Assembly: GCA_030145385.1 (NCBI GenBank)
Contig: JAQYVU010000007.1
Location: forward strand, 17,930-81,929
Length of the DNA stretch: 64,000 nucleotides
DNA from: Desulfococcaceae bacterium
GTDB lineage: Bacteria > Desulfobacterota > Desulfobacteria > Desulfobacterales > Desulfosalsimonadaceae
Direction of reading: 5' to 3'
The notes beneath the pieces were generated by a model that had not been told where the DNA came from, made no database searches, and saw nothing but the letters and a program-made list of their open reading frames with translations. Below, piece after piece: positions 28,441-64,000 of this stretch. Each line of letters begins with the position of its first letter. Positions within the stretch are counted from its first letter, which is position 1. The position numbers and the translations under genes were made by a program.

Positions 28441-28465
28441 ATTTGACGATGAACTTTCATGGCCC

Positions 28466-35809: not shown

Positions 35810-35850
35810 TTATGATGCTTCTTTGGTTTGATTTTTAAAAATCAGTCTTT

Positions 35851-45940: not shown

Positions 45941-46918
45941 GGCATCCTCCTGAAATATTAAATATTGAGTCCAAAACAGGGTTATTTTAAAATATTTTGT
46001 CTTTTATTCCAAGTCAAAAGCCTGGCCTGACCCTATTGTATTCTCATCAACAATAAATTATTATTATTGAATGTTTATTATTTGTATGGATATTTTCTTT
46101 TAAGAATGAGTAAATGTGCGTTTTCCCGGTCGTTTGAAAATCGAAAATATTCTCTACTTTTCTTTGGCGGGCAAAGCAAAGTAGCAAAAGAAACCCGCCC
46201 TGCAGCATGTTCCCTCGATCCGCAGGTTTCCATGGCGGGATCAAAAACTCGATCAATCTTTGGCCCGGAAAGTTTATTTTATTTCTTGTTCACCTTTTTG
46301 CCTCTCAAAGACTTCAGCTTTGCCGCCGCTCAGACAGTTTGCTCCCTTGTCCCATGGAAACCAGCTTCTCTCGGCTATGCTGCAATGGGATTCCTCCGGC
46401 GTTCAAACTGTGGCACAAATGCTGTGAAATAAAAGTGGCATTTTGCAAGGTTGTTGAATTCCCCCTTTTGCTCCTCCGGAACACTGGCAACCAGTTGCCC
46501 GTGCCACCCCAAGACTTTTTGCCCACTCATTTTGCAATTTGCTAACAAAGTCTCTGATCAATACTCTTTGCTATGTATGGATACAAAATAAATGATGAAA
46601 TACTTTGTCGGAGTGCTTGCGCCACTTGAGATCCGTTGGTTTTCAAACGCGCTCTGCGCGGATAAATGGCAAGGAAACTATTTATTTCGTCAAACCCAAA
46701 CCCGGTACGGCAACATAAGAATAATGATAAAAATTGTTCGCCGAAAGGGTTTGCCCATTGCGATGCAGCCCTGAACCGAGGTTTGTGTGGAACAAGGGAG
46801 ACACTGTTTGAGCTGCGTTTACTCCGACAGTGGATTAACAAAAATGATTTGACCGAAGCTTTGGGAAAAGCCCTATCGAGGGCTATTGCCGTCAGCTCTA
46901 AAAATTATGAGACCTCCG

Positions 46919-47239
46919 TTATTCTGTTGAAACTAATTTGAGTCCCACTATTCCGGATACAATGAGAAGCAAACAGACAACCCTGAGGATGTCTCGTGAT
47001 TCACTAAATAGGATCATACCCAATATTGCTACTCCAACCGCACCAACGCCAGTCCATACGGCGTATGCTGTGCCTACTGGAATAGTCTTCATAGCCAATG
47101 ATAATAACCAAACACTAATGACCATACCTGAGACGGTCAGTAATGATGGAATAAGCTTTGTAAATCCAAAAGTATATTTTAATCCAATGGCCCATCCGCA
47201 TTCAAACAAGCCAGCAATTATCAAATAAACCCATGACAT
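46919..47239 (-). CDS. sugE: SMR-family exporter, SugE/Gdx type (guanidinium/quaternary ammonium efflux)
   Basis: 106 aa, four TM helices, [22 protein letters not shown]... with the conserved membrane Glu. GGGAG Shine-Dalgarno upstream. Confidence 0.85.
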
Positions 47240-47269
47240 GTTTCTACTCCCTGACCTGATTTTGTTGCC

Positions 47270-47660
47270 TCATCTCGCGGTAGGAACGCCGGTTACCCGG
47301 CACCCCCCGCACAGACCCGGACGTTCGGTTTTCCCGCATCCGATTCCTCGGTTGTACTCGCTTTCGCGCAAATCATTAGCATTATGTAAATACCCGATGT
47401 CGTTTGGTCGATAGTGGGAGATTGGGTTTAGCAATCCCGAGTCGCTCGATGGCCAATTAATTGCCTTCCAGGCAAAGCTTTTTCGCTTTCCACCTCGTCG
47501 GTTTAGCCATTTGAATGCACTTTCAATCGCCCAACTGTAAAAACGCCATAATGACCTTAAGTTGCCGACCACACTGTAATAATTGTAATGTCCGCGCAGC
47601 CGTCGATTCAACTCCGTTATGAATTTAATCCCCTTTAAAGTAGAAATATGGTAATATCAC
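47270..47660 (-). mobile_element. Group II intron reverse transcriptase/maturase relic (domain X and C-terminal tail only; RT domain missing)
   Basis: ..GIKFITELNRRLRGHYNYYSVVGNLRSLWRFYSWAIESAFKWLNRRGGKRKSF.W.. matches the maturase RGWxNYY region. The tail ..CGKTERPGLCGGCRVTGVPTAR is typical of intron ORF ends. The frame is closed by a TGA near 47668, so only ~130 codons survive. Confidence 0.6.
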
Positions 47661-47904
47661 GCAGTATCTCAGGCATTTGTTTTAATGCCTGTAAATATGT
47701 TTTCAATTTATCTTTCATCTGATGTCTAACTATGCGTAACCGACGCGAGGAGCTTAGTGACAAGCGTTCGGTTTACGCATTTGTTAGTCGAGATATATTA
47801 TTTGTTGTATTTCTTCCTACGTGAGCCTTCATTTCAACCATCACTTAAAGACAATAAGTAACGCAAACGGCGTTTCAATTGGTTTTTTTTCGATACCGCA
47901 GTGA

Positions 47905-48321
47905 CTATTTCTCCTCAATCGAAATCTTGAACTCAACAGTTCCCAACCCTCCCAGTTCGAGACCAGGATCTGTGCATCTAAATCCAGCCATAAAAGCGGT
48001 TATATCACCCTTTTGGTACATGCGATCTAACAACGATGTACTCTTTTCATAAAGTGGCTGAATCGCCCCCAGGCACAAGGGCGCCGTACTCTCCTGTGCG
48101 TTGATCTCTACAGCTCTATCCAACACATACTTCTGCCCAACTTGTAGCCCGGCATAACAATACTTGGAGCTGACCACTTCGGCGACCAATCGATATTTAT
48201 CGACCGCTTCCGTTGCGTTTAAAATAGTCTTTTCCATTTCGGGAGTCACTTTTGCCATATCCTCCTCTGTCATACTGAGAATCTCGACCGCGATTGCCTT
48301 GAGCCCTTCGTCTTTGATCAT
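47905..48321 (-). CDS. Hypothetical protein (possibly TIGR04076-like)
   Basis: 138 aa. ..KYCYAGLQVGQKYVL......APLCLGAIQPL.......FRCTDPGLELGGLGTVEFKISIE weakly recalls the TIGR04076 pattern. Confidence 0.4.
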   Translation of the reverse strand: MIKDEGLKAIAVEILSMTEEDMAKVTPEMEKTILNATEAVDKYRLVAEVVSSKYCYAGLQVGQKYVLDRAVEINAQESTAPLCLGAIQPLYEKSTSLLDRMYQKGDITAFMAGFRCTDPGLELGGLGTVEFKISIEEK

Positions 48322-48741
48322 GTCACGCCTCCTGTTACGGTTTGTTTATGACGACGTTTTATCTAATATATTACGACTAACATTAGTTATTCAACAGACC
48401 GGCTTCTTTTTGTCCAGAAACCGAATATTTTGATAAATTTTGGTAATATTACCAAAAAAGCACCAAATTATCAAAAACATAATAATTTAATGTATATCAA
48501 ATTGTTATTCCGATTTTGGTTTTTTGCTAAAAAATGAACATAGTTCAAATTGGTCGTTTTTTGTTCCAATTAATGCACTTCAAGAGAGAAACCATTGAAT
48601 TTTACTTTTCAATTAACAGCACGAGATTGCATACCATATATTGTGCTTGAGATTTGTTAAAGTACAACCAAATTAGATGATAATGATTTTTATAAATTCA
48701 AGAATGGAGATAAAACCGACAGTATTCCAGATTTTTTTTGA

Positions 48742-48942
48742 TGCGTGGACTATCGATAAAAACAGACAACATTCCCGCAACGGCCGCCAGTGCACATTGT
48801 GATAAACTTTACGGGATTTTTAAAAATCAAACATCCCACATATCGTGGTTGAATTTCCATAATATTCTCGAATCGCAGGTTGAAAATTATCTGACATTTG
48901 TTGGCCTGATCACAACTTTATTGATTTCCGCTACCCCAAGAT
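48742..48942 (+). repeat. Direct repeat, copy 1 (135 bp identical to 59520-59654, plus ~55 bp of diverged extension)
   Basis: 48752-48886 is base-for-base identical to 59520-59654 (checked by eye). Homology resumes at gatcacaactt..atttccg.taccccaagat. Confidence 0.9.
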
Positions 48943-49254
48943 ATGGAAAAATTGCCTTATTGAATAAACCGGCATTAGCACTGAATTCGGTTGGTATGTT
49001 GCACAGATGGCCAGAATTTTACGGCGAGCACAAGCTATTGCAAGATGCAATGAGGAGGAGAGTTTTGATGGTGAGCACTATCTTTGTCTCACCAAAGTTT
49101 TATTTCTTGACATAATCGGAGATTGATTCAACCCGATCTATAGCGCAAAAGTCTTGTTTCAACACAACGTATTGATATTAATTATCATATAGGTAAATAT
49201 TAAACATTATTATCCAGGTGATTCCCTATGTTCAATGCATGCCCTGCCTAAAAA

Positions 49255-50260
49255 CAATATGACATTGACGAACCGCGCAATCCGAATACGACGCCTAACT
49301 TCCAATGCACGTAGATCATTTTGAAGACCTGGAGATGGCTTAGGATAATCGCTACCAAAGTCAGTATGGATTTTTCAGACCTTATGTCCGGGACATGATT
49401 TACCGGTATCTGAACTGCGGGGCCCTGCACCTAAAATTTGCCCGGGTGAGATGCCTTGATTGCGGCCATGAGTATCTTTTGCCGTTTTTCCTGCAAGCGC
49501 CGTCATTTCTGCCCCTCCTGCCACCAGAAAAAAGTCATCGAGTTCGGTGAATGGATGTGCGAGGAGGTCTTGAAACATTTGCCACATCGTCAATGGGAGT
49601 ACTCCATCCCCAAACAGCTTCGCGTATTTAATTGGTCTCTGAAATCAACAGCCTCTATGGGCGTGGATATCTACTATGACCATCGCCTGCTGCTTGCCGA
49701 GCTTTCCCTGTGTGCTTGGAAAGTCTTATCCACATATCTGAAAACCAGTGTGAGATAAGATGACACGATTCCCGGCGGCGTAATCGCGGCCCAGATCTTC
49801 GGCGATTTTCAGAATTTTAATCCCCATCTGCACATTATCGCAACCGATGGCTGTTTTTATGAAAACGGCCTGTCGGCGTGCAACGCACGGACAGGCCTTT
49901 TCATCAAGGGGCCGCAACCCGTTGCAAGGGAGTTGGAGGATTCATTTCGCCGGGAGGTCTTTGCCTGCTCAAAAAAGAGGGAATGATCACCGATCTTGTC
50001 ATCGATAATATGATGTGCCAGCATCACAGCAGCTTCAACGTCTATTGCGACAAGACCCTCTGGCCAGACAATGAAGAGGGACTGGAAAATCTGGCCCGAT
50101 AAATTATCCAGCGTCATTTTCATCCGAGCGGATGACTTATATCCCGGCCTCTGAAACAAAAACCGGGACGGCCAGAGTCATTTATCATTCCAAGAATGAA
50201 CACAGCTTTTGCATTCCTGCCCGAAAGCCATCGCACAATTTTTTCAGAAGAATACAAAAA
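49255..50260 (+). mobile_element. IS91-family (Y2/rolling-circle) transposase pseudogene: multiple frameshifts and stops, 3' truncated
   Basis: The pieces lie in three frames: EPRNPNTTPNFQC / HVDHFEDLEMA*DNRYQSQYGFFRPYVRDMIYRYLNCG..ARVRCLDCGHEYLLPF / SCKRRHFCPSCHQKKVIEFGEW...HRQWEYSIPKQLR / ..PGGVIAAQIFGDFQNFNPHLHIIATDGCFYENG / ..ITDLVIDNMMCQHHSSFNVYCDKTLWPDNEEGLENLAR*. These are the Zn-binding and Y2-transposase motifs of IS91-like elements. Confidence 0.7.
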
Positions 50261-50405
50261 CCGAACGGCAAAATTCAGTACAAAGAAAACTATCGCTTTT
50301 CAGGACAGAAACATTGATATGATTTAAAGCTGAGAGAGTTTTCAGTTCTAATGAAATGAGGATAATGGCAGAAAAAGATAATCAATTCCATTTAAAACCG
50401 CTTTT

Positions 50406-50566
50406 AGGGCCGTGGAAAAAATAAAATATCCCAAATAGCGAAGGATTTTGCTTCCACATTCAAGGCGCGATGAAGCAAACATATCGAGATGCGTATGTTG
50501 CATCGCAACAAAGAAGGCGAAGCAATCGACCCGCAAGATCGCGGCATTTATATTTTTCACAGCCCT
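50406..50566. repeat. Long-hairpin intergenic repeat, subfamily B, copy 2
   Basis: agggccgtggaaaaaataaaatatccca ... gcgaaggattttgcttcc..attcaaggcgcgatgaagc...tcgcaacaaagaaggcgaagcaa ... with a degraded right arm, cggcatttatatttttcacagccct. Confidence 0.75.
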
Positions 50567-50995
50567 TATACCCGCCAAAAGATGAACCAAAGGTCTCAAA
50601 CGCCCCCTTCCGTTAACGTAAGTTTTTTGATTGTTAATAACTTAATCTGGTGCAACAAGAATTTGCATTAATTGCAAGGATGGCAAGTACTGAAAGGATT
50701 GCACACTGGCTTTAATGCTTTTTTTGACTCCGAAAATTTCAAAATTGCGCCACCATTGGAGAAAGATTACAGACTAATATTCATATTTTTTGATGGTTAA
50801 CTTAACTCGCCCCTTTTCGTTCCCTGCACGTTCCGTGTTCGCCCAAATATTACATATTTGTAATGATGCAAGTGCAAACTTACAATTCTGTATTTTATTT
50901 TCAAATCCCACAATGTGGCAGCTAAAGTATAATACGGAAAATAACCCAATGGATTTTAAGATTATTGTAAAAAAGAGATCACATCGATGGGTTTA

Positions 50996-51011
50996 TGGCA
51001 TGCAAAATGCA
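50996..51011 (+). promoter_or_regulatory. Sigma-54-like -24/-12 element (also part of a palindrome) upstream of the ABC/eut operon
   Basis: TGGCATGCAAAATGCA has GG and GC at the canonical 12-nt register and lies 117 nt before the ATG at 51128. It is also the palindrome CATGCAaaaTGCATG, so it could equally be an operator. Confidence 0.3.
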
Positions 51012-51127
51012 TGTTGCTTAATACGTAGCGCTTGCATGGCGCATCACCGAGAAAAAATAACCCATACCCCAAAAAAGCAACCCATATCCTGGACAAGGAT
51101 ATGGGATGAAGAGGAAAGGATTTAAAA

Positions 51128-52105
51128 ATGAAAAGGAAAGAATGTAAGATAAAAAGACGTTGTACTCACTTTTGGCTGTGGATGCTTCTTGCGGCAATGA
51201 TATTCTCACCGGCTTCCGCCCTTTGCGGATCTGTGGAGTCAAATGACCCGATCAAAATCACCCTGCACGACTGGAGCGGTCAGCTGATCACCAGCCATCT
51301 GATGGGAGATATTCTGGAATCCATGGGGTATCGTATCAAATATGTCACTGCCGATTATATTGCCCAGTTCGCCGGACTAGAATCCGGAGATCTGCACCTG
51401 GCGATGGAAATCTGGGAAACCACCGGCAAGCAGGCGATGCTCAAATCCCTGGCAACCGGAAAGACGGAAGACCTCGGCGAAACCGGTTTGTTTGCCAAGG
51501 AAGAGTGGTGGTATCCGGCTTACATGAAGGAACAGTGCCCGGATCTCCCGGACTGGAAAGCACTCAACAAATATGTCAAGGTTTTTGCGGCACCCGAAAC
51601 CGCCCCCAAAGGGCGCTACCTCTGCGCACCGGTGACATGGGGCGGCTTCGACGAGGAGCGGGTCAAGGCGCTCGGCCTTGATTACGAAGTGGTCCATGCC
51701 GGCACAGACGCGGCACTGTTTGCCGAACTCACCTCCGCCTACCAGCGAAAAGCCCCGATCCTCCTGTGGGTTTACACGCCGCATTGGGTCCCCATCAAAT
51801 ATAAAGGCGAATGGATCCAGTTTCCGAAATATACCGATGAATGCTACGAGGATCCGACCTGGGGCGGCAATCCCGAAATGACTCATGACTGCGGCAAACC
51901 GGAAGGATGGATCAAAAAAGTTGCCTGGGCCGGCCTCAAAGATAAATGGCCCGGAGCCTACAAAGCGATCAAGGCGTTCCATATCGAAAATAAAGAGATG
52001 GGAGAAATGATCGCCAGAATCGATCTGGACGGAGAAAAACTGGAAGATGTCGTTGCGGACTATTTGAAAACACACGAAGCTGTCTGGAAGGAATGGATCA
52101 AATAA
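51128..52105 (+). CDS. ABC transporter substrate-binding protein, glycine betaine/choline (ProX/OpuAC) type
   Basis: 325 aa with a signal peptide (..WLWMLLAAMIFSPASALC). The Trp-rich segments (EIWETTG, EEWWYPAYM, LLWVYTPHW) are typical of quaternary-amine binding proteins. Confidence 0.75.
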   Translation: MKRKECKIKRRCTHFWLWMLLAAMIFSPASALCGSVESNDPIKITLHDWSGQLITSHLMGDILESMGYRIKYVTADYIAQFAGLESGDLHLAMEIWETTGKQAMLKSLATGKTEDLGETGLFAKEEWWYPAYMKEQCPDLPDWKALNKYVKVFAAPETAPKGRYLCAPVTWGGFDEERVKALGLDYEVVHAGTDAALFAELTSAYQRKAPILLWVYTPHWVPIKYKGEWIQFPKYTDECYEDPTWGGNPEMTHDCGKPEGWIKKVAWAGLKDKWPGAYKAIKAFHIENKEMGEMIARIDLDGEKLEDVVADYLKTHEAVWKEWIK

Positions 52106-53184
52106 TCATGATCGCTCCCAAAACAGAAAAATTGACCCCTGGCACCGTGAAGCTGGCCTGTCGCAATGTATGGAAGCTCTTCGGGAAACATCCGGAGCGC
52201 TTCCTGGCCGCTCACGACAATCGCCCGACCTACGAGCAAATCCGGGAAGCCTACTATATCGGGGCTACCCGGGATGTATCTCTGGAAATCTATGAAGGAG
52301 AGATTTTTGTCATCATGGGATTATCCGGATCCGGGAAATCCACGCTGGTACGGAACATGACGCGGTTGATCGAACCCACTGCCGGTGAGATTATCTTCGA
52401 CGGCATGGACCTTCTCAAAGCCGATGAGAAAACCCTCATCGACATCCGCCGGAAAAAAATGGGCATGGTATTCCAGAATTTCGGCCTCCTGCCCCACCGC
52501 AATGTTCTTGACAATGTGGCCTTTCCGTTAGAGGTCCAGGGCATGGCACGATTTGCCCGTGAAGAAGAGGCCGAGCAGATGATTGAACTGGTGGGTCTCA
52601 AAGGCCGGGAATATTATTTCCCCAGGGAACTCTCCGGCGGAGAGCAGCAGCGGGTCGGCATTGCCAGGTCGCTGGCGGTCGCCCCGGAGGTCTGGTTCCT
52701 GGACGAACCCTTTTCGGCCTTAGATCCCCTGATCCGCGCGGAGATGCAGGATGAATTCTTAAGGCTTCAAAAAGTTCTCCACAAAACCATCGTTTTCATC
52801 ACCCATGATTTCGACGAGGCCATCCGGCTGGCGGACCGTATCGCCATCATGAAAAATGGAGAAATCGTCCAGGTCGGTACCCCGGAAACCCTGCTCCTGC
52901 ATCCGGCCGACGCATACGTTTCAGAATTCACACAAAAGGTTCCCCGGGCAAAGGTCGTGTCGGCCGCCTCCGTCATGACGCCTTTAGACAGCGCTTCACC
53001 CATTCCGCCAACCGTCTCCCCGGTCGCTGCAGACACGAAAATCGATGCACTCATCGGTCGATTCATCAATCAGCAGGAGCCCATACCTGTGGTCGACGCG
53101 TCGGAACGGATTATCGGAGAGATCAGCATGCAAAATGCGCTCAGGGTCTTTATCGGAGAGGAGGCTGCAACCCATGGGTGCTAA
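52093..53184 (+). CDS. ABC transporter ATP-binding protein, ProV/OpuAA type with a C-terminal CBS-like tail
   Basis: 363 aa with Walker A GLSGSGKST, signature LSGGEQQRVGIARSL and Walker B WFLDEPFSALD. It overlaps the upstream gene by 13 nt (alternative start at 52108). Confidence 0.85.
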   Translation: MDQIIMIAPKTEKLTPGTVKLACRNVWKLFGKHPERFLAAHDNRPTYEQIREAYYIGATRDVSLEIYEGEIFVIMGLSGSGKSTLVRNMTRLIEPTAGEIIFDGMDLLKADEKTLIDIRRKKMGMVFQNFGLLPHRNVLDNVAFPLEVQGMARFAREEEAEQMIELVGLKGREYYFPRELSGGEQQRVGIARSLAVAPEVWFLDEPFSALDPLIRAEMQDEFLRLQKVLHKTIVFITHDFDEAIRLADRIAIMKNGEIVQVGTPETLLLHPADAYVSEFTQKVPRAKVVSAASVMTPLDSASPIPPTVSPVAADTKIDALIGRFINQQEPIPVVDASERIIGEISMQNALRVFIGEEAATHGC

Positions 53185-55312
53185 TGAGATATGCTCATTT
53201 GCCGGATTTTACAAAACCCCACCGGTCCCCTTTGCGCCCATAAGCTGCCCCGCAGCAGAACCGGACGCGGAATCGATAGAGGAGATGGTGGAGATGGAAC
53301 CGGTGGACCGGAGCGCCCCCCTGATACGGGCCTGGCGCCGAATCTGGTCAGAGTTGAAATCGGCCCCCGTCACCCGTTGGATCTGGGTGGCGGTACTCAT
53401 GACCTGGGTGACGACCCGTTTCATTGATCCGCCCTGGATGGCGGTCTACCCGGAAGACTGGGTACTGCCCTTCAAAGACCTGTTGAATCGTCTCATGGAC
53501 TGGCTGATCAACGATCTCAGTTTCGGGGTTTTCACATTCAAAGAAATGACCCGATCTGTGGCCTGGCTGCTCGAATGGCCCATGACATGGGCACTGGGGA
53601 TCTTTGCCACCGGCGTCGATATTGCGACGGGCGGTGGCCAGATGCTGCATATCCCCCACCTGCCCTGGATTGCTGTCGTGGGCGTGGCTGCCATCCTCGG
53701 GCATGCCGGCAAAGGGTGGAACCTTGCCCTTCTGGCCGGATCGGCGTTTCTCTATCTGGCCGTGTTCGGTCAATGGGAAAGCGCCATGATGACCCTGGCC
53801 GCCATATTGATTTCCGTTGCCATCGGAGCCCTGGTCGGGCTGGCCATCGGCATCGTTACCGCCGGGAGCCGCCGGATCGAGGCATGGGTCCTGCCATTGC
53901 TGGATCTCATGCAGACGGTGCCGGTGTTCGCCTACCTGATCCCGATTCTCTTTTTGTTCGGCTTCGGGCCGGTTTCCGCCATGATTGCCACCATCATCTA
54001 TGCCACCCCCCCCATGGTCCGCTGTACCATGCTGGGGTTGCGTGCAACACCCCCCGAAATTATTGAATCCGGACAGATGATCGGCTGCACCCGCCGCCAG
54101 CTCCTGTGGAAAGTCAAAATACCGGCAGCCATGTCGGAATTGATGGTCGGCCTGAATCAGGTCATCATGCTCTCCCTGAACATGGTCATCATCGCCTCCA
54201 TGATCGGTGCCGGCGGCCTGGGGTACGATGTTCTCGCAGCCCTTCGACGCCTGAAGATCGGTGCCGGACTGGAGTCTGGGATCGCCATCGTCGTCATGGC
54301 CATTGCGCTGGATCGCCTCAGCCAGGCCTTCGCATGCAAAGCACCTGTCAATCTGCGTGACGCGACGTTTCTCAAACGTCACGCCCATTCCCTTCTGGCC
54401 GTCGCCGTTATCCTGGGCGGCTATGCGCTGGGAATGATATTCCCGGTGCTGATGAACTACCCCGAGACCTGGGAGGTGACCACCGGCCCCTTCTGGGACG
54501 GAATGATCAAATTTATCAACATCAACTGTTATGATCAGCTCGAATGGATCCGCAGCGGTCTTCTACTGACACTGCTCATGCCGTTCAAACGATTTTTAAT
54601 CGGACTGCCCTGGCTGGGGGTGATCATGGCGCTGGGGCTTGTTGCCTATCGGTTGAAGGGGTTTAAGCTTGCGGGCCTGGTGGTGGCGCTGGCCGGATTT
54701 ATCGCGGTCACCGGGTTCTGGGAAAAAGCCATGATTACCGTTTACCTGTGCGGCATCGGCGTTATGCTTTCCACTGTCATTGGTCTGATTATCGGCGTCT
54801 GGGCCGCCAAGAGCAATTCCATGTCGCGCGTGATAAATATCATTTTAGACACCCTCCAGACGCTGCCGTCCTTTGTCTATCTCATGCCGGTGGTGATGCT
54901 GTTTCGCGTGGGCGATGTATCGGCCCTAATCGCCATCGTTGCTTATGCCGTGGTTCCCGCCATTCGCTATACCGTGCACGGCATATTGAACGTCCCCGCA
55001 ACCGTGCGGGAAGCAGCCGTTGTTTCGGGGTGCACCCCATATCAAACTTTCTGGAAGGTCGAGTTGCCGCTGGCCCTTCCGGATATCATGCTGGGCATCA
55101 ACCAGACAGTCATGCTGGCCCTTTCGATGGTCGTCATTACCGCCCTGGTCGGCACCCGGGATTTGGGCCAGGAGGTCTACATCGCCCTGACACGGGCGGA
55201 TAACGGGCTGGGATTGACCGCCGGACTGGGCGTTGCATTCATCGCGACCATTACCGACCGGCTGATTCAGGCATGGACCGAATCGCGACGATCGCACCTG
55301 GGAGCCGCATGA
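53174..55312 (+). CDS. ABC transporter permease, tandem fusion of two ProW-type transmembrane domains
   Basis: I start it at MGANEICSF (ATG 53174, GGAGAGGAGG 9 nt upstream, overlapping the proV-like stop). It has two copies of the permease core (..MQTVPVFAYLIPILFLFG.. and ..LQTLPSFVYLMPVVMLF..), 712 aa in all. Confidence 0.8.
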   Translation: MGANEICSFAGFYKTPPVPFAPISCPAAEPDAESIEEMVEMEPVDRSAPLIRAWRRIWSELKSAPVTRWIWVAVLMTWVTTRFIDPPWMAVYPEDWVLPFKDLLNRLMDWLINDLSFGVFTFKEMTRSVAWLLEWPMTWALGIFATGVDIATGGGQMLHIPHLPWIAVVGVAAILGHAGKGWNLALLAGSAFLYLAVFGQWESAMMTLAAILISVAIGALVGLAIGIVTAGSRRIEAWVLPLLDLMQTVPVFAYLIPILFLFGFGPVSAMIATIIYATPPMVRCTMLGLRATPPEIIESGQMIGCTRRQLLWKVKIPAAMSELMVGLNQVIMLSLNMVIIASMIGAGGLGYDVLAALRRLKIGAGLESGIAIVVMAIALDRLSQAFACKAPVNLRDATFLKRHAHSLLAVAVILGGYALGMIFPVLMNYPETWEVTTGPFWDGMIKFININCYDQLEWIRSGLLLTLLMPFKRFLIGLPWLGVIMALGLVAYRLKGFKLAGLVVALAGFIAVTGFWEKAMITVYLCGIGVMLSTVIGLIIGVWAAKSNSMSRVINIILDTLQTLPSFVYLMPVVMLFRVGDVSALIAIVAYAVVPAIRYTVHGILNVPATVREAAVVSGCTPYQTFWKVELPLALPDIMLGINQTVMLALSMVVITALVGTRDLGQEVYIALTRADNGLGLTAGLGVAFIATITDRLIQAWTESRRSHLGAA

Positions 55313-56859
55313 CCGGCCCCGTCCAGACGCCAGGCATATCCGCGTGTTCGAGCGACGGGCGGGTTTTCCGCCCGTCGGCGCGCTCGGTCACCCTGCTTGG
55401 ATTTGATTTCGGATCGACGACCAGCAGCGCTGTGGCCGCCCGTTTGCGGGTCGGCAGGCATCGATTTTCCGGTGAGGTCTCCCTCGAACGGCCCAAAATC
55501 ATCTACCGGTCGAAAACCGTTTTTACGCCCTTCACCGGTGACGATCTGGACCTTCCCGCCTTGCGTCGCATTATCCGGGGATGGATGACCGACGGGCGAC
55601 TTGAAATTGACGACATATTCTCCGGGGGTGCCATTGTCACGGGCCTGGCAGCCACCCGGCGCAACGCCGACAAGCTGACGGCCCTGGTACATGAGTATGC
55701 GGGAGAATCACTGATTGCAACGGCTGATGATCCGGCCCTGGAATCCTGGCTGGCATTTATGGGCAGCTGCTATGGCATGTCCCGGAGCCGCCCCCGGCGA
55801 CCGGTGCTTAACCTGGATATCGGGGGAGGGACCACCAATGCGGCCCTGGGATTAAACGGGGATATTCTGTCCACCGGATGCGCGTTTATCGGGGCCCGCC
55901 ACTTTCGCTTTTCGCCGGGAACCTACCGGCTGACAGGCATTTCTTCCTTTGGAGAAAGACTCCTGCGTCAACTGGATATAGATATCACACCGGGAGATAT
56001 TGTGGCGGCCGATGCACGGGATCGTCTCCTGGAGTTGATGATCCGGTATCTTGAAGAGATTGCCACCGGGCAGCGGGACCTGGCAGAAGACTCCCGATTC
56101 GCGTTTATCGAGCAGTTGCCCCTGAACGTTCCCGAAACAGCTCATGATCCGATGATAACATTCTCCGGCGGTGTCGGCGCCCTTGTCTACAGGGCAGCCC
56201 TGGGTGAACCGATGCCCGGGATTACCGCATTCGGGGATCTGGGAATCGACCTGGCCCGGCGGATCGCCTCCTCTCCGATTCTCTCCAAAAACCTCTTGAG
56301 CTGCATGCCCGAGAGCAGGGGACATGCCACCGTTTACGGACTGGCGCTGCATCACACGGAAATTTCGGGCACAACGCTGTTTCTCCCGGCCCCCCAGTTG
56401 CTGCCGCTAAAGGATTTGCCGGTGGTGGCCCGGCTGAAAATTGACGACAAAGAGAGCAGAATTTCCCATGGGCTGAAGATGGTCCGAAAGTGTCAGACCG
56501 GCGGCGCCATTCAGGTGAACGGCACACCCGGCCGCTCTGAAAGCCGTCAGGCAGTTGAGTGCTTTCGGCGGTTTGGCCGGCTGCTGGGTGCGCTGATGAA
56601 GGAAGCGGACTGGCCTGAGGATCGCCCGGTGGTACTGCTCATGAACAGCAATTGCGGAAAAACCGTGGGCAACTATGCCACCGGCTGGAAACAATACGCC
56701 CTGCCCCTTCTGGTCTTAGACGAGATCCCCGATCGGGACACCCAGTTTGTAACCATTGGCAGGAAAAAGGGTGCATTGGTGCCGGTCTCTTTTTTCGGGA
56801 TGCATCATGCGGCGTCCCGTTCAAACATCAGAATCACCAACACGCAGGACACGTGTTGA
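55309..56859 (+). CDS. eutA: Ethanolamine ammonia-lyase reactivating factor EutA
   Basis: Preferred start is MTGPVQ (ATG 55309), which overlaps the permease TGA as ATGA. ..LLGFDFGSTTSSAVAARL.. and ..LNLDIGGGTTNAAL.. are the ASKHA/EutA phosphate-binding motifs. Confidence 0.75.
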   Translation: MTGPVQTPGISACSSDGRVFRPSARSVTLLGFDFGSTTSSAVAARLRVGRHRFSGEVSLERPKIIYRSKTVFTPFTGDDLDLPALRRIIRGWMTDGRLEIDDIFSGGAIVTGLAATRRNADKLTALVHEYAGESLIATADDPALESWLAFMGSCYGMSRSRPRRPVLNLDIGGGTTNAALGLNGDILSTGCAFIGARHFRFSPGTYRLTGISSFGERLLRQLDIDITPGDIVAADARDRLLELMIRYLEEIATGQRDLAEDSRFAFIEQLPLNVPETAHDPMITFSGGVGALVYRAALGEPMPGITAFGDLGIDLARRIASSPILSKNLLSCMPESRGHATVYGLALHHTEISGTTLFLPAPQLLPLKDLPVVARLKIDDKESRISHGLKMVRKCQTGGAIQVNGTPGRSESRQAVECFRRFGRLLGALMKEADWPEDRPVVLLMNSNCGKTVGNYATGWKQYALPLLVLDEIPDRDTQFVTIGRKKGALVPVSFFGMHHAASRSNIRITNTQDTC

Positions 56860-56887
56860 AAAACATATAGAAAAAAAAGGATTTATT

Positions 56888-59095
56888 TTGAAACCACTGA
56901 CCCCCATTGCAGATATCCGGATACCTGCACCGCAACCCGACATGGACTACACCACCCGTATCATGGGCAGGACCTTTACTTTTCACGGCCTCAAGCGCCT
57001 CCTGGGAGCTGCGGACTACGGCAAAGCCGGAGACCGTTCCGCCGGACTCTCGGCCGCCAGTGAAACCGAACGCGAGGCAGCCCGCTCCCTGATGTCGTCT
57101 CTGACGCTGGAGCATTTATTCGACCATCCCCTGACCGACGAGGAGGGTCGAACGGATTCCGTCATGCGGGTTAACTATGCCATCGACGCGACCGCATTTG
57201 ATGAAATTCGACGCATGACCTTAGGGACGCTCAAAGACCACCTGATGCGGCAGCCGGGCGATGTCATCAAGCGGATCGGCAGTGGATTGACCGGCCCCAT
57301 GGCGGCCGCGCTGACCAAACTCATGGATGTCCATGAGCTGATCCTGCTGTCAAAAAAAATTGAAACGCCGACCCGGGCCCGCACCCGGATCGGGCAGCAG
57401 GGCACCCTTTGCTCAAGGCTTCAGCCGAATCATCCGACCGATCACCTGGACGGACTGACCCTGCTGACCTATACAGGACTGTCCCTGGGAACCGGAGACT
57501 GCCTCATCGGCGTCAATCCGGCCGAGGATACGGTTCAGAACATTTCAGCCATACTGGGGCAGCTCGATGCCATCCGCCGTGAAACGGGCGCGCCGACCCA
57601 GATCTGTGTACTGGGCCACATCAAGACGCAGATCAGCTGCCTGGAACAGGGGGCACCTGTCGAGATTCTGTTCCAGAGCCTTGCCGGTACCGATCGCACC
57701 CTGGTTGAGGAATTCGACGTTACCGTCGATTATCTTGACTTTGCCTACGACACGATGGACCGGATCGGGCCGCTTCGCGGGCAGGCAGACCAGATGATGT
57801 ATTTCGAAACCGGCCAGGGCAGCGAGGTCAGCTACGGCAAGCATAACAATATCGACATGGCGACCTGTGAGGCTTTGTGTTACGGGCTTGCCCGACGTTA
57901 CGATCCGTTTATGGTCAACAATGTCACCGGGTTCATCGGTCCGGAAACCCACAATGACAACATGGAGATGATCCTGTCCAACCTTCAGGACCATTTCATG
58001 GGGAAATTGATGGGACTGCCCATGGGCATGGCGCCCTGCTATACGCTTCACTCCGGAATTACGGTCGAGGGGCAGCAGATCGCAACGGAACTTTTGACAG
58101 CCGCCGGGGCCAATTATTACATGGATGTCTATCTGAATAGCGATCGAATGCTGGCCTATTTCGATACCAGCGGCCATGATGACCAGACACTCAGGGAAAT
58201 TTACGGCCGCAGCCCGGCTCCCGAATATGCCGAATGGGCCGTCTCCAAAGGGATCTTTGCCCGCTCGCCGGCGGGTGGTTTTTGCCGCGGCCCGCATTGG
58301 GGCGATCCGTCCATCTTCTGTTCTTCCGAAATGGAATTCCAGTCTCTTTCGGAGTCGCTGCCGGCTGCCTACGGCTTTGAAAATGCCGGCCCCCGTCCGG
58401 CCAATGACGTCTCCCGAACGTCACGATTTAACCAGGCGGCAGCACGCAACGCCATATACAGCGATCTCGATCCTGAACAACTCAAAATCCATGACCTTGA
58501 ACCGGATCGTTTCAAATGGGTCGCCACCCTGGCGGACAGTCGGAAAGTCCATCTGAACAATCCGGAGCGGGGAACCCGTCTGTCCGCGCAAAGTGCGGCG
58601 GACCTGAAAACCGATTGCTCCAAAGACGTTCAGATCGTCATTTCCGACGGTCTCAGCGCTGATGCCATTCACCACAACATACCGCAGCTGCTTCCCGTTC
58701 TTTTAGACGGGCTGGAGAGCCGCGATCTTCGCGTCGGAAAAATAATCGTTGCCCCTTTCGGCAGAGTAAAGCTGGTCGAAAGCATCGCACAGGAAGTCAA
58801 TCCGCGACTGGTGATTATGCTGATAGGCGAACGGCCGGGCGGTGACGCCCAGGCATCCAAGAGCATGTCCGCCTATATTATGTTTCCCGGTGAAACGAAA
58901 AATGACGCATCACTTCCGGAAGAATCCGGTGTGCAGGCGGACGCATACGAATATACCGTTATATCGAATATCTATAACCGGGGCATCCCTCCGCTGGAGG
59001 CCGGAAGCCTTATTGCCGAAAAAGCCCTTGAGATTCTCAAACATCAAGCGGCCGGAAACAGGCTGGAGGAAATTTTGAAATCGGCTGCCGGATGA
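56888..59095 (+). CDS. eutB: Ethanolamine ammonia-lyase, fused large (EutB) and small (EutC) subunits in one polypeptide
   Basis: EutB part: ..RLQPNHPTD..GDCLIGVNPAED..MYFETGQGSE..VNNVTGFIGPE..CYTLHS... EutC part: ..DVQIVISDGLSADAI....RVKLVESIAQEV..LVIMLIGERPGG... The start is uncertain: TTG 56888 has an AAGGA Shine-Dalgarno, and ATG 56942 (MDYTTRIMGRTFTFHGL) fits the homologous N-terminus. The track start at 56756 overlaps eutA and is unlikely. Confidence 0.85.
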   Translation: MKPLTPIADIRIPAPQPDMDYTTRIMGRTFTFHGLKRLLGAADYGKAGDRSAGLSAASETEREAARSLMSSLTLEHLFDHPLTDEEGRTDSVMRVNYAIDATAFDEIRRMTLGTLKDHLMRQPGDVIKRIGSGLTGPMAAALTKLMDVHELILLSKKIETPTRARTRIGQQGTLCSRLQPNHPTDHLDGLTLLTYTGLSLGTGDCLIGVNPAEDTVQNISAILGQLDAIRRETGAPTQICVLGHIKTQISCLEQGAPVEILFQSLAGTDRTLVEEFDVTVDYLDFAYDTMDRIGPLRGQADQMMYFETGQGSEVSYGKHNNIDMATCEALCYGLARRYDPFMVNNVTGFIGPETHNDNMEMILSNLQDHFMGKLMGLPMGMAPCYTLHSGITVEGQQIATELLTAAGANYYMDVYLNSDRMLAYFDTSGHDDQTLREIYGRSPAPEYAEWAVSKGIFARSPAGGFCRGPHWGDPSIFCSSEMEFQSLSESLPAAYGFENAGPRPANDVSRTSRFNQAAARNAIYSDLDPEQLKIHDLEPDRFKWVATLADSRKVHLNNPERGTRLSAQSAADLKTDCSKDVQIVISDGLSADAIHHNIPQLLPVLLDGLESRDLRVGKIIVAPFGRVKLVESIAQEVNPRLVIMLIGERPGGDAQASKSMSAYIMFPGETKNDASLPEESGVQADAYEYTVISNIYNRGIPPLEAGSLIAEKALEILKHQAAGNRLEEILKSAAG

Positions 59096-59176
59096 TGATC
59101 TTCGGGCGTGGTGGTTGCTTGCCAGGAAATCTCCGGCGACGGTTCCAGCGCGAATTCTATCTGGTCCAATCAGGAT

Positions 59177-59208
59177 CATCCTCTTCTGGTGGAGGATGGG
59201 CTTTTTTT
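59177..59208 (+). terminator. Rho-independent terminator of the ABC/eut operon
   Basis: CATCCTCttctggtgGAGGATGggcttttttt, ~80 nt after the eutBC stop. Confidence 0.65.
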
Positions 59209-59511
59209 ACCCCCTTGGTTTTTGCAATCATGCCGGAGATCGGACAGTCAGAAAGCCGATCGGGTCGATACTGGCGAAGCATAGAGGCATTTATGTCAAG
59301 ATGTGGCAGATAATCCCAATTGCATGAATCCTGCAAAGGGTCTGCCTTTAGTGAATCCTTATAAATCCTTTTCGGACCAATTCATAGTTTGAATTTTATG
59401 AATATTTATTCCAAAAATAGCCGTTATCCGGTCTTAAACCCTACATTAAAATTGAAATAATAATGACCTAAGATTGTTTCAAAATGACAGTATTTCAGAA
59501 AATCTCGAAGG

Positions 59512-59710
59512 TGCGTAATATCGATAAAAACAGACAACATTCCCGCAACGGCCGCCAGTGCACATTGTGATAAACTTTACGGGATTTTTAAAAATCAAAC
59601 ATCCCACATATCGTGGTTGAATTTCCATAATATTCTCGAATCGCAGGTTGAAAACGCCCTGTCTTTTTCTGTGTGATCACAACTTTTAGATATTTCCGTT
59701 ACCCCAAGAT
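59512..59710 (+). repeat. Direct repeat, copy 2 (see 48742-48942)
   Basis: 59520-59654 is identical to 48752-48886, with flanking partial homology. Confidence 0.9.
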
Positions 59711-60441
59711 GTTGTGTAATCTGCAAATTTAATAAAACAGACAGCGGTGCCTACAGTTATCGATAGTCTACGCTTTTTGCAACTTTTGCAATACTGTTGG
59801 AACTCGTTGGATTCTTTACCGTGGATCAGAATTTCTGGTATGTCCGGAATCATGATCCGCCGGTCAAAATAAATGAGCAAGTCCGCGAGTTGACGTATGA
59901 CGATTCATATGCTCAATCCTCATTTGAAGATTTCCGGGCGCAATAAATTGTGAACCGGCAGAGGACTGGTGCCGCCAAAATCGGTGAAAATGGCACGGGA
60001 TTTCAGAATTTTTCAGGCATCATCTATTGATCCGACATAACCGACCGCTCCTCCTAAAGCCACTCCCGAACACGCCACAACATAAAATACCTGTTAAAAC
60101 TTGACATACAAGACGATTTTTGAGATATATCAAGTCGTAAAAAACTTTTCATGGTGTCGCGTCACCACTGTATCAGAAAATAAATCATCCATCATTTCAA
60201 CTGATTGGAGAGATGACTTATTTGGAAGCAATATCTTATTCCTTATTTCTTTTATTCCTAAAAATTAGGCCGGATCATGTTCATCTTTTAGTTGAAACAG
60301 ATCCGAAATAATAACTGGTCCGAAATCATTGTTATCTAAATGGCATGATTTGAAATCGGTTTTGCGATTGTTGAATAAATGACGATTCAGTGACCTATAG
60401 AAATTAAAACAAATGATTGATAATGGGAATAGAAATAGAAC

Positions 60442-61623
60442 ATGACAACATTATTTGAACCCGGCACAATCGGAAAGATGGATATTAAAAATCGATTTGT
60501 CAGGTCAGCAACCGCCGAACTCCTTGCAACAGAAGACGGTCGCGTGACAGATAAATATCTCAAGGCTTATAGACAGCTGGCAAGAGGTGGTGTTGGGCTT
60601 ATCATTACCGGAAATTTCTATTTGAATCCTATCGGTCAGGCGCTGCCGAGAAGTATCGTTATGCATCGAGATGAAATTGTGGATGATCTCAGAAAAGTTG
60701 TGAAAACCGTTCATGAGCACGGCGCTAAAATCGTTGCCCAGATTAATCACGCGGGTCGACAATGTTATCCCAATTTCATTGCTCAAAAACCGATTGCACC
60801 ATCAGCGGTTCGCGATATGATGTCGCTTGTCAAACCCAGACAGATGTCTCTAAATGAAATCGAAGAAACCATAACTGCTTATGGAGACGCTGCACGACGG
60901 GTAAAGGAAGCCGGATTTGATGGTGTGCAGATCCATGCTGCACATGGATATATGATTAATCAATTCCTCTCTTGTCACACAAACCGCCGGAAAGACGAAT
61001 GGGGAGGTTCTTTGGATAATCGAATGCGTTTTCTGATAAGGGTGTATGAATTAATCCGCGAAACCGTAGGCCCGGATTATCCGGTTCTGATTAAACTAAA
61101 TGGAGAAGACTGCTTTCCAAATGGGGTAACCATTGATCAGTCATTGGCAGTGTGTGAAAAACTGGATGAACTGGGAATAGATGCCATTGAAGTGAGCGGT
61201 GGTATTGGCGAAACCGGATTTTCCACTATCCGAGGAGACATCCCCAGAGATCTACTGATAAAAAACCGGAATATTGCTGAAAAATTACTCATCCGGTTTT
61301 TGATCGAAAAAAAAATGCGAAAAAATGCGGAATTTAGTGAGGCCTATTTTCTACCTTTTGCGACAGCTGTCAAGAAAAAGGTCAATGTACCGGTTATCTC
61401 TGTCGGTGGCATTCGCCGCAGAGAAACAATAGAAAATATACTTAAAAACAAGGATGCGGATTTTATTTCTTTATCCCGTCCCTTTATTCGTCAACCTAAC
61501 CTGGTCAACCAATTTGAAAAAGGAGAAAAAGATCCCATTACCTGTGATAGCTGTAACCGGTGCACGTTTGAGATGATTATTCATCATAAGCCAATGCGAT
61601 GCTATAATAAAGGCAAGCCTTAA
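60442..61623 (+). CDS. Old-Yellow-Enzyme-family NADH:flavin oxidoreductase (2,4-dienoyl-CoA-reductase N-domain-like) with a C-terminal Cys cluster
   Basis: 393 aa with ..RFVRSAT..GGVGLIITGN..VAQINHAGRQ..GVQIHAAHGYMINQFLS.. and a C-terminal CDSCNRC...C motif. Confidence 0.8.
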   Translation: MTTLFEPGTIGKMDIKNRFVRSATAELLATEDGRVTDKYLKAYRQLARGGVGLIITGNFYLNPIGQALPRSIVMHRDEIVDDLRKVVKTVHEHGAKIVAQINHAGRQCYPNFIAQKPIAPSAVRDMMSLVKPRQMSLNEIEETITAYGDAARRVKEAGFDGVQIHAAHGYMINQFLSCHTNRRKDEWGGSLDNRMRFLIRVYELIRETVGPDYPVLIKLNGEDCFPNGVTIDQSLAVCEKLDELGIDAIEVSGGIGETGFSTIRGDIPRDLLIKNRNIAEKLLIRFLIEKKMRKNAEFSEAYFLPFATAVKKKVNVPVISVGGIRRRETIENILKNKDADFISLSRPFIRQPNLVNQFEKGEKDPITCDSCNRCTFEMIIHHKPMRCYNKGKP

Positions 61624-63569: not shown

Positions 63570-63594
63570 GTTTCAACGTTAATGTTGATGATCT

Positions 63595-63744
63595 CGTAAA
63601 AAGTCCGATTTAGACGGCAAAGTACAAAAGCTCCACCAAATCTTATAAAATTGGCGAGGCGCGCAAATCCTGAGCAATGATTAGTAGTTAGCCTACCTTG
63701 AAGCAGCGAGGGATGCAGCGCAACAAAGAATTTGGACTTTTTAC
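63595..63744. repeat. Long-hairpin intergenic repeat, subfamily A, copy 2
   Basis: cgtaaaaagtcc (63595-606) pairs with ggactttttac (63734-744). The core ggcgaggcgcgc...gcgcaacaaagaa is related to the B subfamily. Track ORF 63698..63880 is a translation artefact of it. Confidence 0.7.
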
Positions 63745-63751
63745 AAAGCCG

Positions 63752-64000
63752 TCAATGTTTTGCTATTTTTTTAACCCGTTGGTATCCCGGAATCTCTCCT
63801 TTGATCCCGCACTTGCCAATGGTACGGACTTTTTCAAGCGCAATTCTCACGCCGTTTGGAATACTTCTTCCCGGCTCTGAAACGCACCCGCCAGCCAGAT
63901 AAACATCATGCCCCAGACAAATGCCCAGTGCAAGGCTTCCCGTATCAACAGGATTGCCGTTTTTCATAACAGATACGTTTTTTCCGTCAAAGCGATAGTC
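63752..64000 (-). CDS. C-terminal end of a protein that starts beyond the right window edge; product not recognised
   Basis: The minus frame is open from the edge: DYRFDGKNVSVMKNGNPVDTGSLALGICLGHDVYLAGGCVSEPGRS...KKIAKH*. The track starts it at an internal Met (63967). Confidence 0.5.
   Translation of the reverse strand, partial: DYRFDGKNVSVMKNGNPVDTGSLALGICLGHDVYLAGGCVSEPGRSIPNGVRIALEKVRTIGKCGIKGEIPGYQRVKKIAKH

What the first reader, a model, noticed from the sequence alone, without database searches (positions are those of the whole stretch)
48742..59710. A 135-bp perfect direct repeat brackets a 10.8-kb module (IS91 relic plus GC-rich ABC/eut operon)
48752-48886 and 59520-59654 are identical base for base, 10,768 bp apart. 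Weaker homology continues for ~55 bp (to ..ccccaagat). The repeat does not look coding. Between the copies lie the decayed IS91-family transposase, a hairpin repeat and the foreign-looking operon. Outside them the low-GC host-like sequence resumes. This is the signature of an acquired cassette: composite/IS91 end-mediated capture, or attL/attR-like duplication. Perfect identity means the cassette can still be lost by homologous recombination. Copy 2 may be the upstream (terIS-side) end of a second, deleted IS91 copy. That would place the cargo where one-ended rolling-circle transposition picks up DNA, but this is speculative.
Basis: partly seen in the sequence, partly recalled or inferred. Interest (0 to 1): 0.7.

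Follow-up and report, generated by a model that had tools for sequence, protein, structure and literature searches.

The report
Native intergenic repeats flank mosaic region
The perfect repeat is real, but it is a recently homogenised stretch shared by two old copies of a small non-coding repeat native to this Desulfobacteraceae lineage, not an IS91 end or an attachment site, and the DNA between the copies is a patchwork of part of an old IS91 relic and a horizontally acquired transporter/ethanolamine-lyase operon, not a single cassette.

Summary
The repeat is confirmed. It is 136 bp exact (48751-48886 = 59519-59654), set inside about 260 bp of weaker homology.

It is not an IS91 end. Intact relatives of the relic carry nothing like it. 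The relic itself is split: its 5' part (about 49150-50206) lies inside the bracket and its 3' part (about 59821-60243) lies outside.

Only about 50847-59082 looks imported. This five-gene OpuAC/ABC/permease/EutA/EutBC operon recurs in other Desulfobacterales in unrelated contexts, at up to 90% nucleotide identity. It is richer in GC than its flanks in three of the four contexts and marginally in the fourth.

Each repeat copy is a mosaic of a 44-nt box 'a', the palindrome TATCGATA, a 100-bp unique stretch X, and an inverted module 'b'. Box 'a' of copy 1 is the native upstream region of a TIGR04076-like gene. Orthology with a relative stops exactly at the palindrome, where the perfect identity begins. 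The modules following copy 2 are shared with relatives that lack the operon.

Across six site copies, similarity switches abruptly at TATCGATA, which marks it as a recombination junction.

Best reading: two old paralogous intergenic repeat units with a recent 136-bp conversion patch. Integration of a circle by homologous recombination is not excluded. Interest is modest.

The parts
48713..48975 (+). Repeat unit U1 = a1 (48716-48750) + TATCGATA(A) (48751-48759) + X (48760-48859) + inverted module b'1 (48860-48975)
   Evidence: a1 and the palindrome are orthologous to L040-L043; that orthology ends at 48759.
48751..48886 (+). Perfect repeat, copy 1 (palindrome + X + first 27 nt of b')
48976..49150 (.). 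Spacer d1 between U1 and the IS91 left end. 49032-49108 is 72% identical to L003 133-203, which lies next to the a'/IS91 3' fragment in that relative.
49150..50206 (+). IS91-family relic, 5' part. Left end is at about 49140-49165. The tnpA remnant starts at 49228 and covers aa 1-304, with frameshifts and stops.
50391..50569 (.). Palindromic MITE-like repeat H, with a second copy at 35834-36013 (74%)
50847..59095 (+). Imported five-gene operon with its leader: OpuAC 51128-52105, ABC ATPase 52093-53184, permease ORF 53045-55312, EutA 55273-56859, EutB-EutC fusion ORF 56756-59095. True starts are probably later in the last three ORFs.
59176..59209 (+). Terminator-like hairpin with a T-run after eutBC
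59481..59800 (+). Repeat unit U2 with its inverted arm = a2 (59484-59518) + TATCGATA (59519-59526) + X (59528-59627) + b'2 (59628-59756) + TATCGATA (59758-59765) + inverted a'3 (to 59800). This is a 317-bp foldback.
59519..59654 (+). Perfect repeat, copy 2
59821..60243 (+). IS91-family relic, 3' fragment: tnpA aa ~408-448 with stop at 59947-59949, plus the right (oriIS-side) end. It carries an 82-bp indel (60144-60225) relative to L001-L003 and L005. It is orthologous by position in L001-L005.
47905..48321 (-). TIGR04076-like 138-aa gene. Its native upstream region runs up to the palindrome of U1.
60442..61623 (+). Old-yellow-enzyme-type flavin oxidoreductase, the first gene of the conserved right flank

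Best explanation
The two copies are old paralogues of a lineage-specific, non-coding, modular intergenic repeat with the layout a - TATCGATA - X - inverted b; copy 2 continues with a second TATCGATA and an inverted a. A 136-bp stretch was recently copied from one copy to the other by a gene-conversion or patch-recombination event. The left end of that patch is the family's habitual recombination junction, the palindrome TATCGATA.

Neither the IS91 element nor the arrival of the operon made the repeat. The interval between the copies grew piecemeal in a rearrangement-prone intergenic region. An old IS91-family insertion next to the flavin-oxidoreductase gene was broken open. A small palindromic repeat landed there. 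A GC-rich OpuA-type transporter/EutA/EutBC operon was acquired from another member of the Desulfobacterales.

Shown: the anatomy, the native status of the outer halves, the split IS91 relic, the extent of the foreign operon, and the mosaic breakpoints at the palindrome. Inferred: that the perfect tract is a conversion patch, and how it arose.
For: 1. The repeat is absent from intact IS91 relatives and from their flanks.

2. L040-L043 are collinear with window 46804-48759. Orthology stops at the last base of TATCGATAA. After the palindrome they carry module b, which is the reverse-complement homologue of 59628-59797 (E 1e-12) and of 48860-48975.

3. The segment following copy 2 (end of b', palindrome, a') is shared with L002 at 90% on the a' side. 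Only the a' part is shared with L001 and L003, and these relatives lack the operon.

4. A further member (b'-palindrome-a') lies in an unrelated context beside a toxin-antitoxin-like pair in metagenome contig L029, 82% identical to 59627-59765.

5. Identity on the outer versus inner side of the palindrome is discordant: 56|100 for copy 1 vs copy 2, 90|55 for site 3 vs L002, 49|85 for site 3 vs L029, and 69|43 for copy 1 vs L040.

6. The perfect tract ends abruptly on both sides, dropping to about 55-70% identity. It also crosses the X/b' module boundary by 27 nt. It is therefore a copied segment, not an independently inserted element.

7. No protein homologues, no Rfam family and no unusual fold stability.

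8. Operon homology to L025-L028 is confined to 51133-59082, plus a weak leader match from 50847.
Against: - Only 64 kb of this genome is available, so the genome-wide copy number of the unit is unknown.
- X, most of the perfect tract, was found nowhere else.
- Classical RecA-dependent conversion between units whose flanks are only 56-70% identical would lack good homology anchors.
- Native outer halves with unmatched inner halves is also what Campbell-type integration predicts.
- No relative carrying a single hybrid unit, or both units without the operon, was found.
- Orthology of the IS91 5' part with the relic in L004 cannot be proved. It is 77.5% identical, no closer than unrelated family copies.
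Confidence: 0.5

Rival explanations
1. Campbell-type integration. A circular DNA carrying one repeat unit, the IS91 fragment and the operon recombined with a resident unit by homologous recombination within the shared 136 bp. This left one hybrid unit at each end, giving an attL/attR-like duplication without a dedicated integrase.
For: The copies are direct repeats with perfect identity. The outer halves have orthologues in relatives: a1 in L040-L043, and the b'/a'3 segment in L002, L003 and L001. Of the inner halves, a2 and the 59096-59480 spacer match nothing. In L004 the TIGR04076-like/SMR genes and the oxidoreductase gene are near neighbours, as the pre-insertion state would require.
Against: The incoming unit would need a core identical over 136 bp although its flanks are only 56-70% identical. 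The IS91 5' part inside the bracket (aa 1-304) is complementary to the resident 3' fragment outside (aa ~408-448), collinear with it and in the same orientation. A circle would have to reproduce that by coincidence. Spacer d1 inside the bracket has a homologue at this locus in L003. Relatives of the operon carry no such unit nearby. No single-unit allele was found.
Confidence: 0.22
2. IS91-mediated capture. The repeat is the terIS-side end of IS91 copies. The cargo was picked up by one-ended rolling-circle transposition or sits between two IS91 copies as a composite.
For: IS91 fragments lie on both sides of the operon in the same orientation. The operon lies on the terIS side of the 3' fragment's oriIS end, which is where one-ended transposition mobilises DNA (IS91 biology from PMC13181058).
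Against: Intact family members have no sequence like the repeat inside or beside them. Copy 1 ends 165-190 bp outside the left end. Copy 2 is followed by the 3' fragment, not by a 5' end. The oriIS-side junction occurs in L001-L005, and the a'/IS91 junction in L001-L003; all of these lack the operon, so the IS insertion long predates the cargo. The two fragments do not overlap and look like one element split in two. The transposase is badly decayed.
Confidence: 0.06
3. Assembly or polishing artefact. The two tracts are truly similar but not identical, or the GC-rich block was joined in through a shared repeat during metagenome assembly.
For: No window protein tried was on record as an exact sequence, and every close relative found is a metagenome-assembled genome, so the window may be one too. 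The tract length of 136 bp is close to the largest k-mers that assemblers commonly use; this point rests on my own knowledge.
Against: Both junctions of the GC-rich operon lie in unique sequence hundreds of bases from the repeats. The flanks of both copies are individually supported by homologues in independent assemblies. A repeat shorter than k would be resolved, not collapsed.
Confidence: 0.07

Closest known systems
Modular or mosaic intergenic repeats (BIME/REP arrays of enterobacteria, pneumococcal BOX elements) and MITE-like foldback repeats such as Correia elements
   Same: They are short, non-coding and AT-rich. They are built from a few modules that occur in both orientations and in different combinations. 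They are dispersed in intergenic DNA of a lineage. Copy 2 has 44-nt imperfect inverted arms. (The comparison rests on my own knowledge; the anatomy comes.)
   Different: The modules are much longer (44, 100 and ~125 nt) than REP/BOX modules. No target-site duplication and no cognate transposase were found. Only a handful of copies were seen, and none outside a few Desulfobacteraceae assemblies. Exchange points concentrate at one 8-bp palindrome.
IS91 family / ISCR one-ended rolling-circle capture (PMC13181058)
   Same: An IS91-family relic with a Zn-finger N-terminus and a Y2-type transposase remnant is present. Its distinct left and right ends match those of intact relatives, and DNA has accumulated on its terIS side.
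   Different: The repeat is not part of the element. The relic is ancient, decayed and split. The cargo lies inside the relic rather than beyond an intact terIS, and the same IS junction exists in relatives without the cargo.
Genomic islets flanked by direct repeats through homologous (Campbell-type) integration or att-site duplication
   Same: A direct repeat brackets DNA that includes foreign genes, and 136 bp of identity would allow loss by recombination.
   Different: There is no integrase. The arms beside the identical core are homologous rather than unrelated. The bracketed DNA includes native sequence. No empty site with a single unit was found.

Membership tests
IS91-family element end (terIS side) | The sequence is contiguous with tnpA in intact members of the same subfamily | tested here: not met
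   Ten loci with intact 448-aa transposases (72-73% identical) share only window ~49135-50206 and 59821-60143. nhmmer with U1/U2 finds nothing in them.
IS91-family element end (terIS side) | It lies inside the element boundaries defined by comparing independent insertions | tested here: not met
   L015 vs L023 define a ~1.64-kb element. The left end maps to window ~49140-49165, and U1 ends at 48975.
IS91-family element end (terIS side) | A subterminal palindrome next to a GTTC/CTCG-type cleavage tetranucleotide | not tested
   The feature is taken from PMC13181058. The cleavage site of this subfamily is unknown, so the TATCGATA palindrome could not be scored against it.
attL/attR of an integrative element | A recombinase or integrase gene inside the bracketed DNA | tested here: not met
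   Pfam scans of the long ORFs of the bracket and of stop-free six-frame stretches of its non-coding parts gave only the IS91 relic and transporter/eut genes. Scans of 35 further ORFs, mostly longer than 150 aa, found none elsewhere in the window either.
attL/attR of an integrative element | A single core copy at the empty site in relatives | tested here: inconclusive
   L040-L043 carry the left arm and the palindrome but then a different module. L004 has the flanking genes adjacent but no unit. L001-L003 keep only the right-hand arm.
attL/attR of an integrative element | The bracketed DNA is one foreign unit | tested here: not met
   Foreign homology covers only ~50847-59082. The IS91 5' part inside pairs with the 3' fragment outside. 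d1 has a homologue at this locus in L003.
MITE / modular intergenic repeat | Small and without coding capacity | tested here: met
   The units are 260-320 bp. The 125-aa ORF across copy 1 had a single weak hit (E 1e-4) among 1.84 billion representative proteins and no Pfam hit.
MITE / modular intergenic repeat | Terminal inverted repeats | tested here: met
   Copy 2 has 59484-59527 against 59757-59800, 44 nt at ~70%. This is weak, and copy 1 lacks the right arm.
MITE / modular intergenic repeat | A target-site duplication at the ends | tested here: not met
   No duplication lies outside the arms. The only repeated short sequence is the internal palindrome TATCGATA.
MITE / modular intergenic repeat | Many dispersed copies in unrelated contexts | tested here: inconclusive
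   Family members occur in three contexts: upstream of the TIGR04076-like gene, beside the IS91 3' fragment, and beside a toxin-antitoxin-like pair in L029. A 22-mer of the core is absent from 185,579 representative genomes and from the JGI metagenomes. The source genome itself is not available.
Composite or one-ended IS91 capture unit | The IS/target junctions are specific to the genome that carries the cargo | tested here: not met
   The same right-end junction occurs in L001-L005, and the same a'/IS91 3' junction in L001-L003. None of these has the operon there.

The most novel reading that the evidence does not exclude
TATCGATA with its 44-nt 'a' box is the target of an unidentified site-specific recombinase encoded elsewhere, or a palindrome-driven template-switch hotspot, that swaps or inverts modules. 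Copy 2 would then be an inverton-like 231-bp segment between inverted 'a' boxes upstream of the oxidoreductase/radical-SAM genes. At the TIGR04076-like gene, the window carries inverted b where L040 carries direct b; these would be the two orientations of such a switch.
Probability: 0.12. Interest if true: 0.6.

Novelty: new member of a known kind. Interest (0 to 1): 0.3.

Why it matters
The case shows that a perfect direct repeat around foreign-looking DNA need not mark the ends of a mobile cassette. Here the boundaries of imported DNA, IS relic and repeat all differ. An annotator who called a 10.8-kb 'island' would mis-assign native sequence.

The locus is also a small case study of how an IS91 scar and short native repeats turn one intergenic region into a synteny breakpoint across related Desulfobacteraceae.

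The conserved OpuA-type transporter/EutA/fused EutBC operon moves between Desulfobacterales as a block and may deserve functional attention.

The concentration of exchange points at one 8-bp palindrome is the only feature that could lead to something mechanistically new.

Tried and rejected
**Searches for further copies of the repeat**
- E. coli genomes and plasmids gave no match to the repeat.
- An exact 22-mer of the core found nothing in representative genomes or JGI metagenomes.
- A 19-mer from the right flank gave 11 hits. Only L029 is a true homologue; the rest match the 19-mer alone.

**What the repeat might encode**
- As a protein fragment: no Pfam hit and one spurious weak hit in the exhaustive protein search.
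- As a structured RNA: no Rfam hit even at E<=1, and fold z-scores of -0.7 and -0.06.

**Ideas about individual modules**
- X as a diverged copy of module b or of spacer d1: not significant.
- The inverted 'a' box as decayed IS91 coding sequence: DNA and protein homology to IS91 start only at ~59821-59832.
- Module b continuing beyond the IS91 right end, which would mean the IS inserted at the palindrome: not found.

**IS91 relic history**
- I first took the IS91 5' part to be a paralogue of the relic in L004 because it is only 77.5% identical. I withdrew that claim because the positionally orthologous 3' part is just as diverged at 79.7%.

**Source genome**
- Exact-sequence look-ups of four window proteins all failed, so the source genome is not in the collection.
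Full report
**Observation**

The two tracts are identical over 136 bp (48751-48886 and 59519-59654), start to start 10,768 bp apart. That is one base longer than reported. A 54-mer from the tract occurs exactly twice in the window and never in shuffles. Homology extends on both sides:
- To the right it reaches about 48972/59740, at roughly 70% identity. The alignment score is 30, against a maximum of 15.5 in 500 shuffles.
- To the left it runs about 38 nt, in register but weak.

The composition step is real. The operon is 56.8% GC, against 45.2% over 1-48700 and 39.3% to the right.

**What lies in and around the bracket**

Pfam identifies OpuAC, an ABC ATPase, a double permease, EutA and a fused EutB-EutC between 51128 and 59095. 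To the right of copy 2 lie a flavin oxidoreductase, a B12-binding radical-SAM protein and an ATC-hydrolase-like protein.

The stretch from 49228 onward is a frameshifted IS91-family transposase with a Zn_Tnp_IS91 domain. The closest intact proteins are 448 aa long and 72-73% identical. I fetched ten loci encoding them. Comparing independent contexts defines an element of about 1.64 kb.

The window matches these elements only over two stretches: about 49135-50206 (transposase residues 1-304) and 59821-60143 (residues ~408-448 plus the right end). The true right terminus (…TCTTATTCCT) is at 60243, beyond an 82-bp indel.

The relic is therefore split. Its 5' part lies inside the bracket and its 3' fragment lies outside, to the right of copy 2. 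About 310 bp are missing in between.

**The repeat is not an IS91 end**

Nothing resembling the repeat is present in or beside the intact elements. Copy 1 ends 165-190 bp to the left of the element's left end. IS91-family elements have distinct terIS and oriIS ends and make no target duplication (PMC13181058). That description gives no place for this repeat.

**The operon**

The fused EutBC has its best matches in Desulfobacterales: 90% to a metagenome contig and 76% to Desulfospira joergensenii. Matches elsewhere are about 65%.

In four fetched loci the same five genes occur as a block, with only part of the first gene present at the end of contig L026, in unrelated neighbourhoods. Nucleotide homology to the window is confined to 51133-59082, reaching 89.9% with L025. 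A weak leader match starts at 50847.

The block is GC-rich against its flanks in three of the four contexts:

| Locus | Operon GC | Flank GC |
|---|---|---|
| L025 | 59% | 51-55% |
| L027 | 57% | 49-50% |
| L026 | 58% | 56% (one flank only) |
| window | 57% | 39-45% |

So about 8.2 kb is imported, not 10.8 kb.

**Relatives of the flanks**

The oxidoreductase gene retrieved six Desulfobacteraceae/Desulfobacterales assemblies at 89-95% protein identity.
- L001-L003 are homologous to the window only from about 59734-59763 rightward. Housekeeping or unrelated genes lie upstream of that point.
- L004 places the TIGR04076-like and SMR genes directly beside an internally deleted IS91 relic and the oxidoreductase gene. 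It has no repeat unit and no operon.

The IS91 3' fragment and its junction with the oxidoreductase side are thus ancient and shared. This region is a synteny breakpoint in the family.

The 138-aa gene to the left of copy 1 (called TIGR04076 family by one source) led to L040-L043. These loci are collinear with window 46804-48759. The alignment stops at the last base of TATCGATAA, which is exactly where the perfect repeat begins.

**Anatomy of the unit**

After the palindrome, L040 carries about 125 bp that I call module b. Module b is the reverse-complement homologue of window 59628-59756 (with the a box, 170 nt, E 1e-12) and of 48860-48975. This gives the layout of the two copies:
- Copy 1 = a1 - TATCGATA - X (100 bp) - inverted b.
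- Copy 2 = a2 - TATCGATA - X - inverted b - TATCGATA - inverted a.

Copy 2 is a 317-bp foldback whose 44-nt arms are about 70% matched. The perfect tract equals the palindrome, X and the first 27 nt of inverted b. It therefore crosses a module boundary.

X has no homologue anywhere I could search. A further b-palindrome-a copy, 82% identical to 59627-59765, lies in metagenome contig L029 beside a toxin-antitoxin-like pair, which is an unrelated context. The tail of module b abuts three different sequences: X in the window, and two different positions of another dispersed repeat in L029 and L040.

**Mosaic at the palindrome**

I compared 60 nt outside and 80 nt inside the palindrome for six copies of the site. 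The relationships on the two sides are discordant:

| Pair | Identity outside | Identity inside |
|---|---|---|
| Copy 1 vs copy 2 | 56% | 100% |
| Third window site vs L002 | 90% | 55% |
| Third window site vs L029 | 49% | 85% |
| Copy 1 vs L040 | 69% | 43% (background level) |

The breakpoint of L001, and the point where L003 drops from 93% to about 51% identity, also fall at this palindrome. TATCGATA occurs six times in the window against 0.8 expected, and three of those occurrences are in these units. I conclude that the palindrome is a recurrent recombination junction of this repeat family.

**Mechanism**

The outer halves of the bracket are native: a1 on the left, and the end of inverted b, the palindrome and inverted a on the right. 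The inner halves have no orthologue, apart from spacer d1, which has a homologue at this locus in L003.

Two histories fit the data.

*Preferred history.* Two old paralogous units stood at the two edges of an intergenic region that later accumulated the IS91 break, the small palindromic repeat H and the operon. A recent patch of 136 bp was then copied between them. Its left end is at the family's junction. Three observations support this:
- Identity falls abruptly from 100% to about 55-70% at both ends of the tract.
- The tract crosses the X/b boundary.
- The IS91 5' part inside complements the 3' fragment outside, which argues against the interval arriving as one piece.

*Alternative history.* A circle carrying one unit integrated by homologous recombination. 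This explains the native-outside, foreign-inside pattern. It has two costs:
- The incoming unit would need a core identical to the resident one despite diverged flanks.
- The complementary IS91 halves would be a coincidence.

I could not find the single-unit allele that would decide between the two.

No recombinase gene lies in the bracket or among the ORFs screened elsewhere in the window. The agent of exchange at the palindrome is therefore unknown. Short-homology or palindrome-stimulated recombination and a distant site-specific recombinase are both possible.

**Other readings tested**

The 125-aa ORF across copy 1 has no real homologues. No Rfam family matches even at a permissive threshold. 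The folding energies of copy 2 are ordinary. IS91 protein or DNA homology does not extend into the unit.

**Verdict**

The interpretation as one acquired cassette with IS91- or att-type ends is only partly right: there is an acquired operon and an IS91 relic, but the repeat belongs to neither.

What is present is an unnamed, lineage-specific modular intergenic repeat with a recent conversion patch, in an IS-scarred hotspot. This is a new member of a familiar kind of feature, and its interest is modest. The one thread worth following is the concentration of exchange points at an 8-bp palindrome flanked by a conserved 44-nt box.

Noticed in passing
window 35834-36013 and 50391-50569: A ~180-bp palindromic, MITE-like repeat (74% identical; each copy also aligns to its own reverse complement) with ~28-nt inverted ends (AGGGACGTGGAAAAAAATAATTATCCCA). 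One copy overlaps the 3' end of the aspartokinase-like gene. The other lies between the IS91 5' part and the operon.
   Followed up: partly
window 63579-63768 and 28449-28614; L001 1469-1643 and 7257-7350; L002 1382-1548 and 5920-6086; L004 13124-13290; L029 1-135; L040 9375-9447: Another dispersed intergenic repeat of ~170 bp shared by several Desulfobacteraceae assemblies. In L029 and L040 it directly abuts the tail of module b, at two different positions within the repeat.
   Followed up: partly
window 50847-59095; L025, L026, L027/L028: OpuAC, ABC ATPase, double permease, EutA and a fused EutB-EutC form a conserved five-gene block in several Desulfobacterales, including Desulfospira joergensenii. 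The block sits in different neighbourhoods and is richer in GC than its flanks in three of the four contexts (58% against 56% in L026). The pairing of a betaine/choline-type transporter with an ethanolamine-lyase-type enzyme suggests uptake and deamination of an amino alcohol or a related compound.
   Followed up: partly
window 46804-48379 versus L004 7656-8653 and L040 9566-11070: The SMR gene and the TIGR04076-like gene are in circularly permuted order in L004 relative to the window and L040. The window also carries an extra 455 bp (47274-47728, with a 113-aa ORF that has no Pfam hit) between them.
   Followed up: no
window 60144-60225: An 82-bp stretch lies just inside the right terminus of the IS91 relic. 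It is present in the window and L004 but absent from L001-L003 and L005. The canonical terminus …GCAATATCTTATTCCT follows at 60228-60243.
   Followed up: partly
L002 18784-18961: A second, tiny IS91-family relic in L002. It joins a piece homologous to window 49934-49981 directly to the right-end sequence (60016-60143), so this IS family has left several scars in these genomes.
   Followed up: no
window 1-7750: Long arrays of diverged tandem repeats with periods of about 300 and 372 bp, up to 20 copies. They probably lie within a very large repetitive gene, most likely on the minus strand. A perfect 31-bp duplicate sits at 7663-7693 and 7711-7741.
   Followed up: no
L015-L022: The intact IS91-family element related to the relic sits in a 3.3-kb block that is 99.5% identical between L015 and L016. 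It is also preceded by a divergently oriented ORF of unknown function (310 aa in three contigs, partial in others, 459 aa in L015).
   Followed up: no
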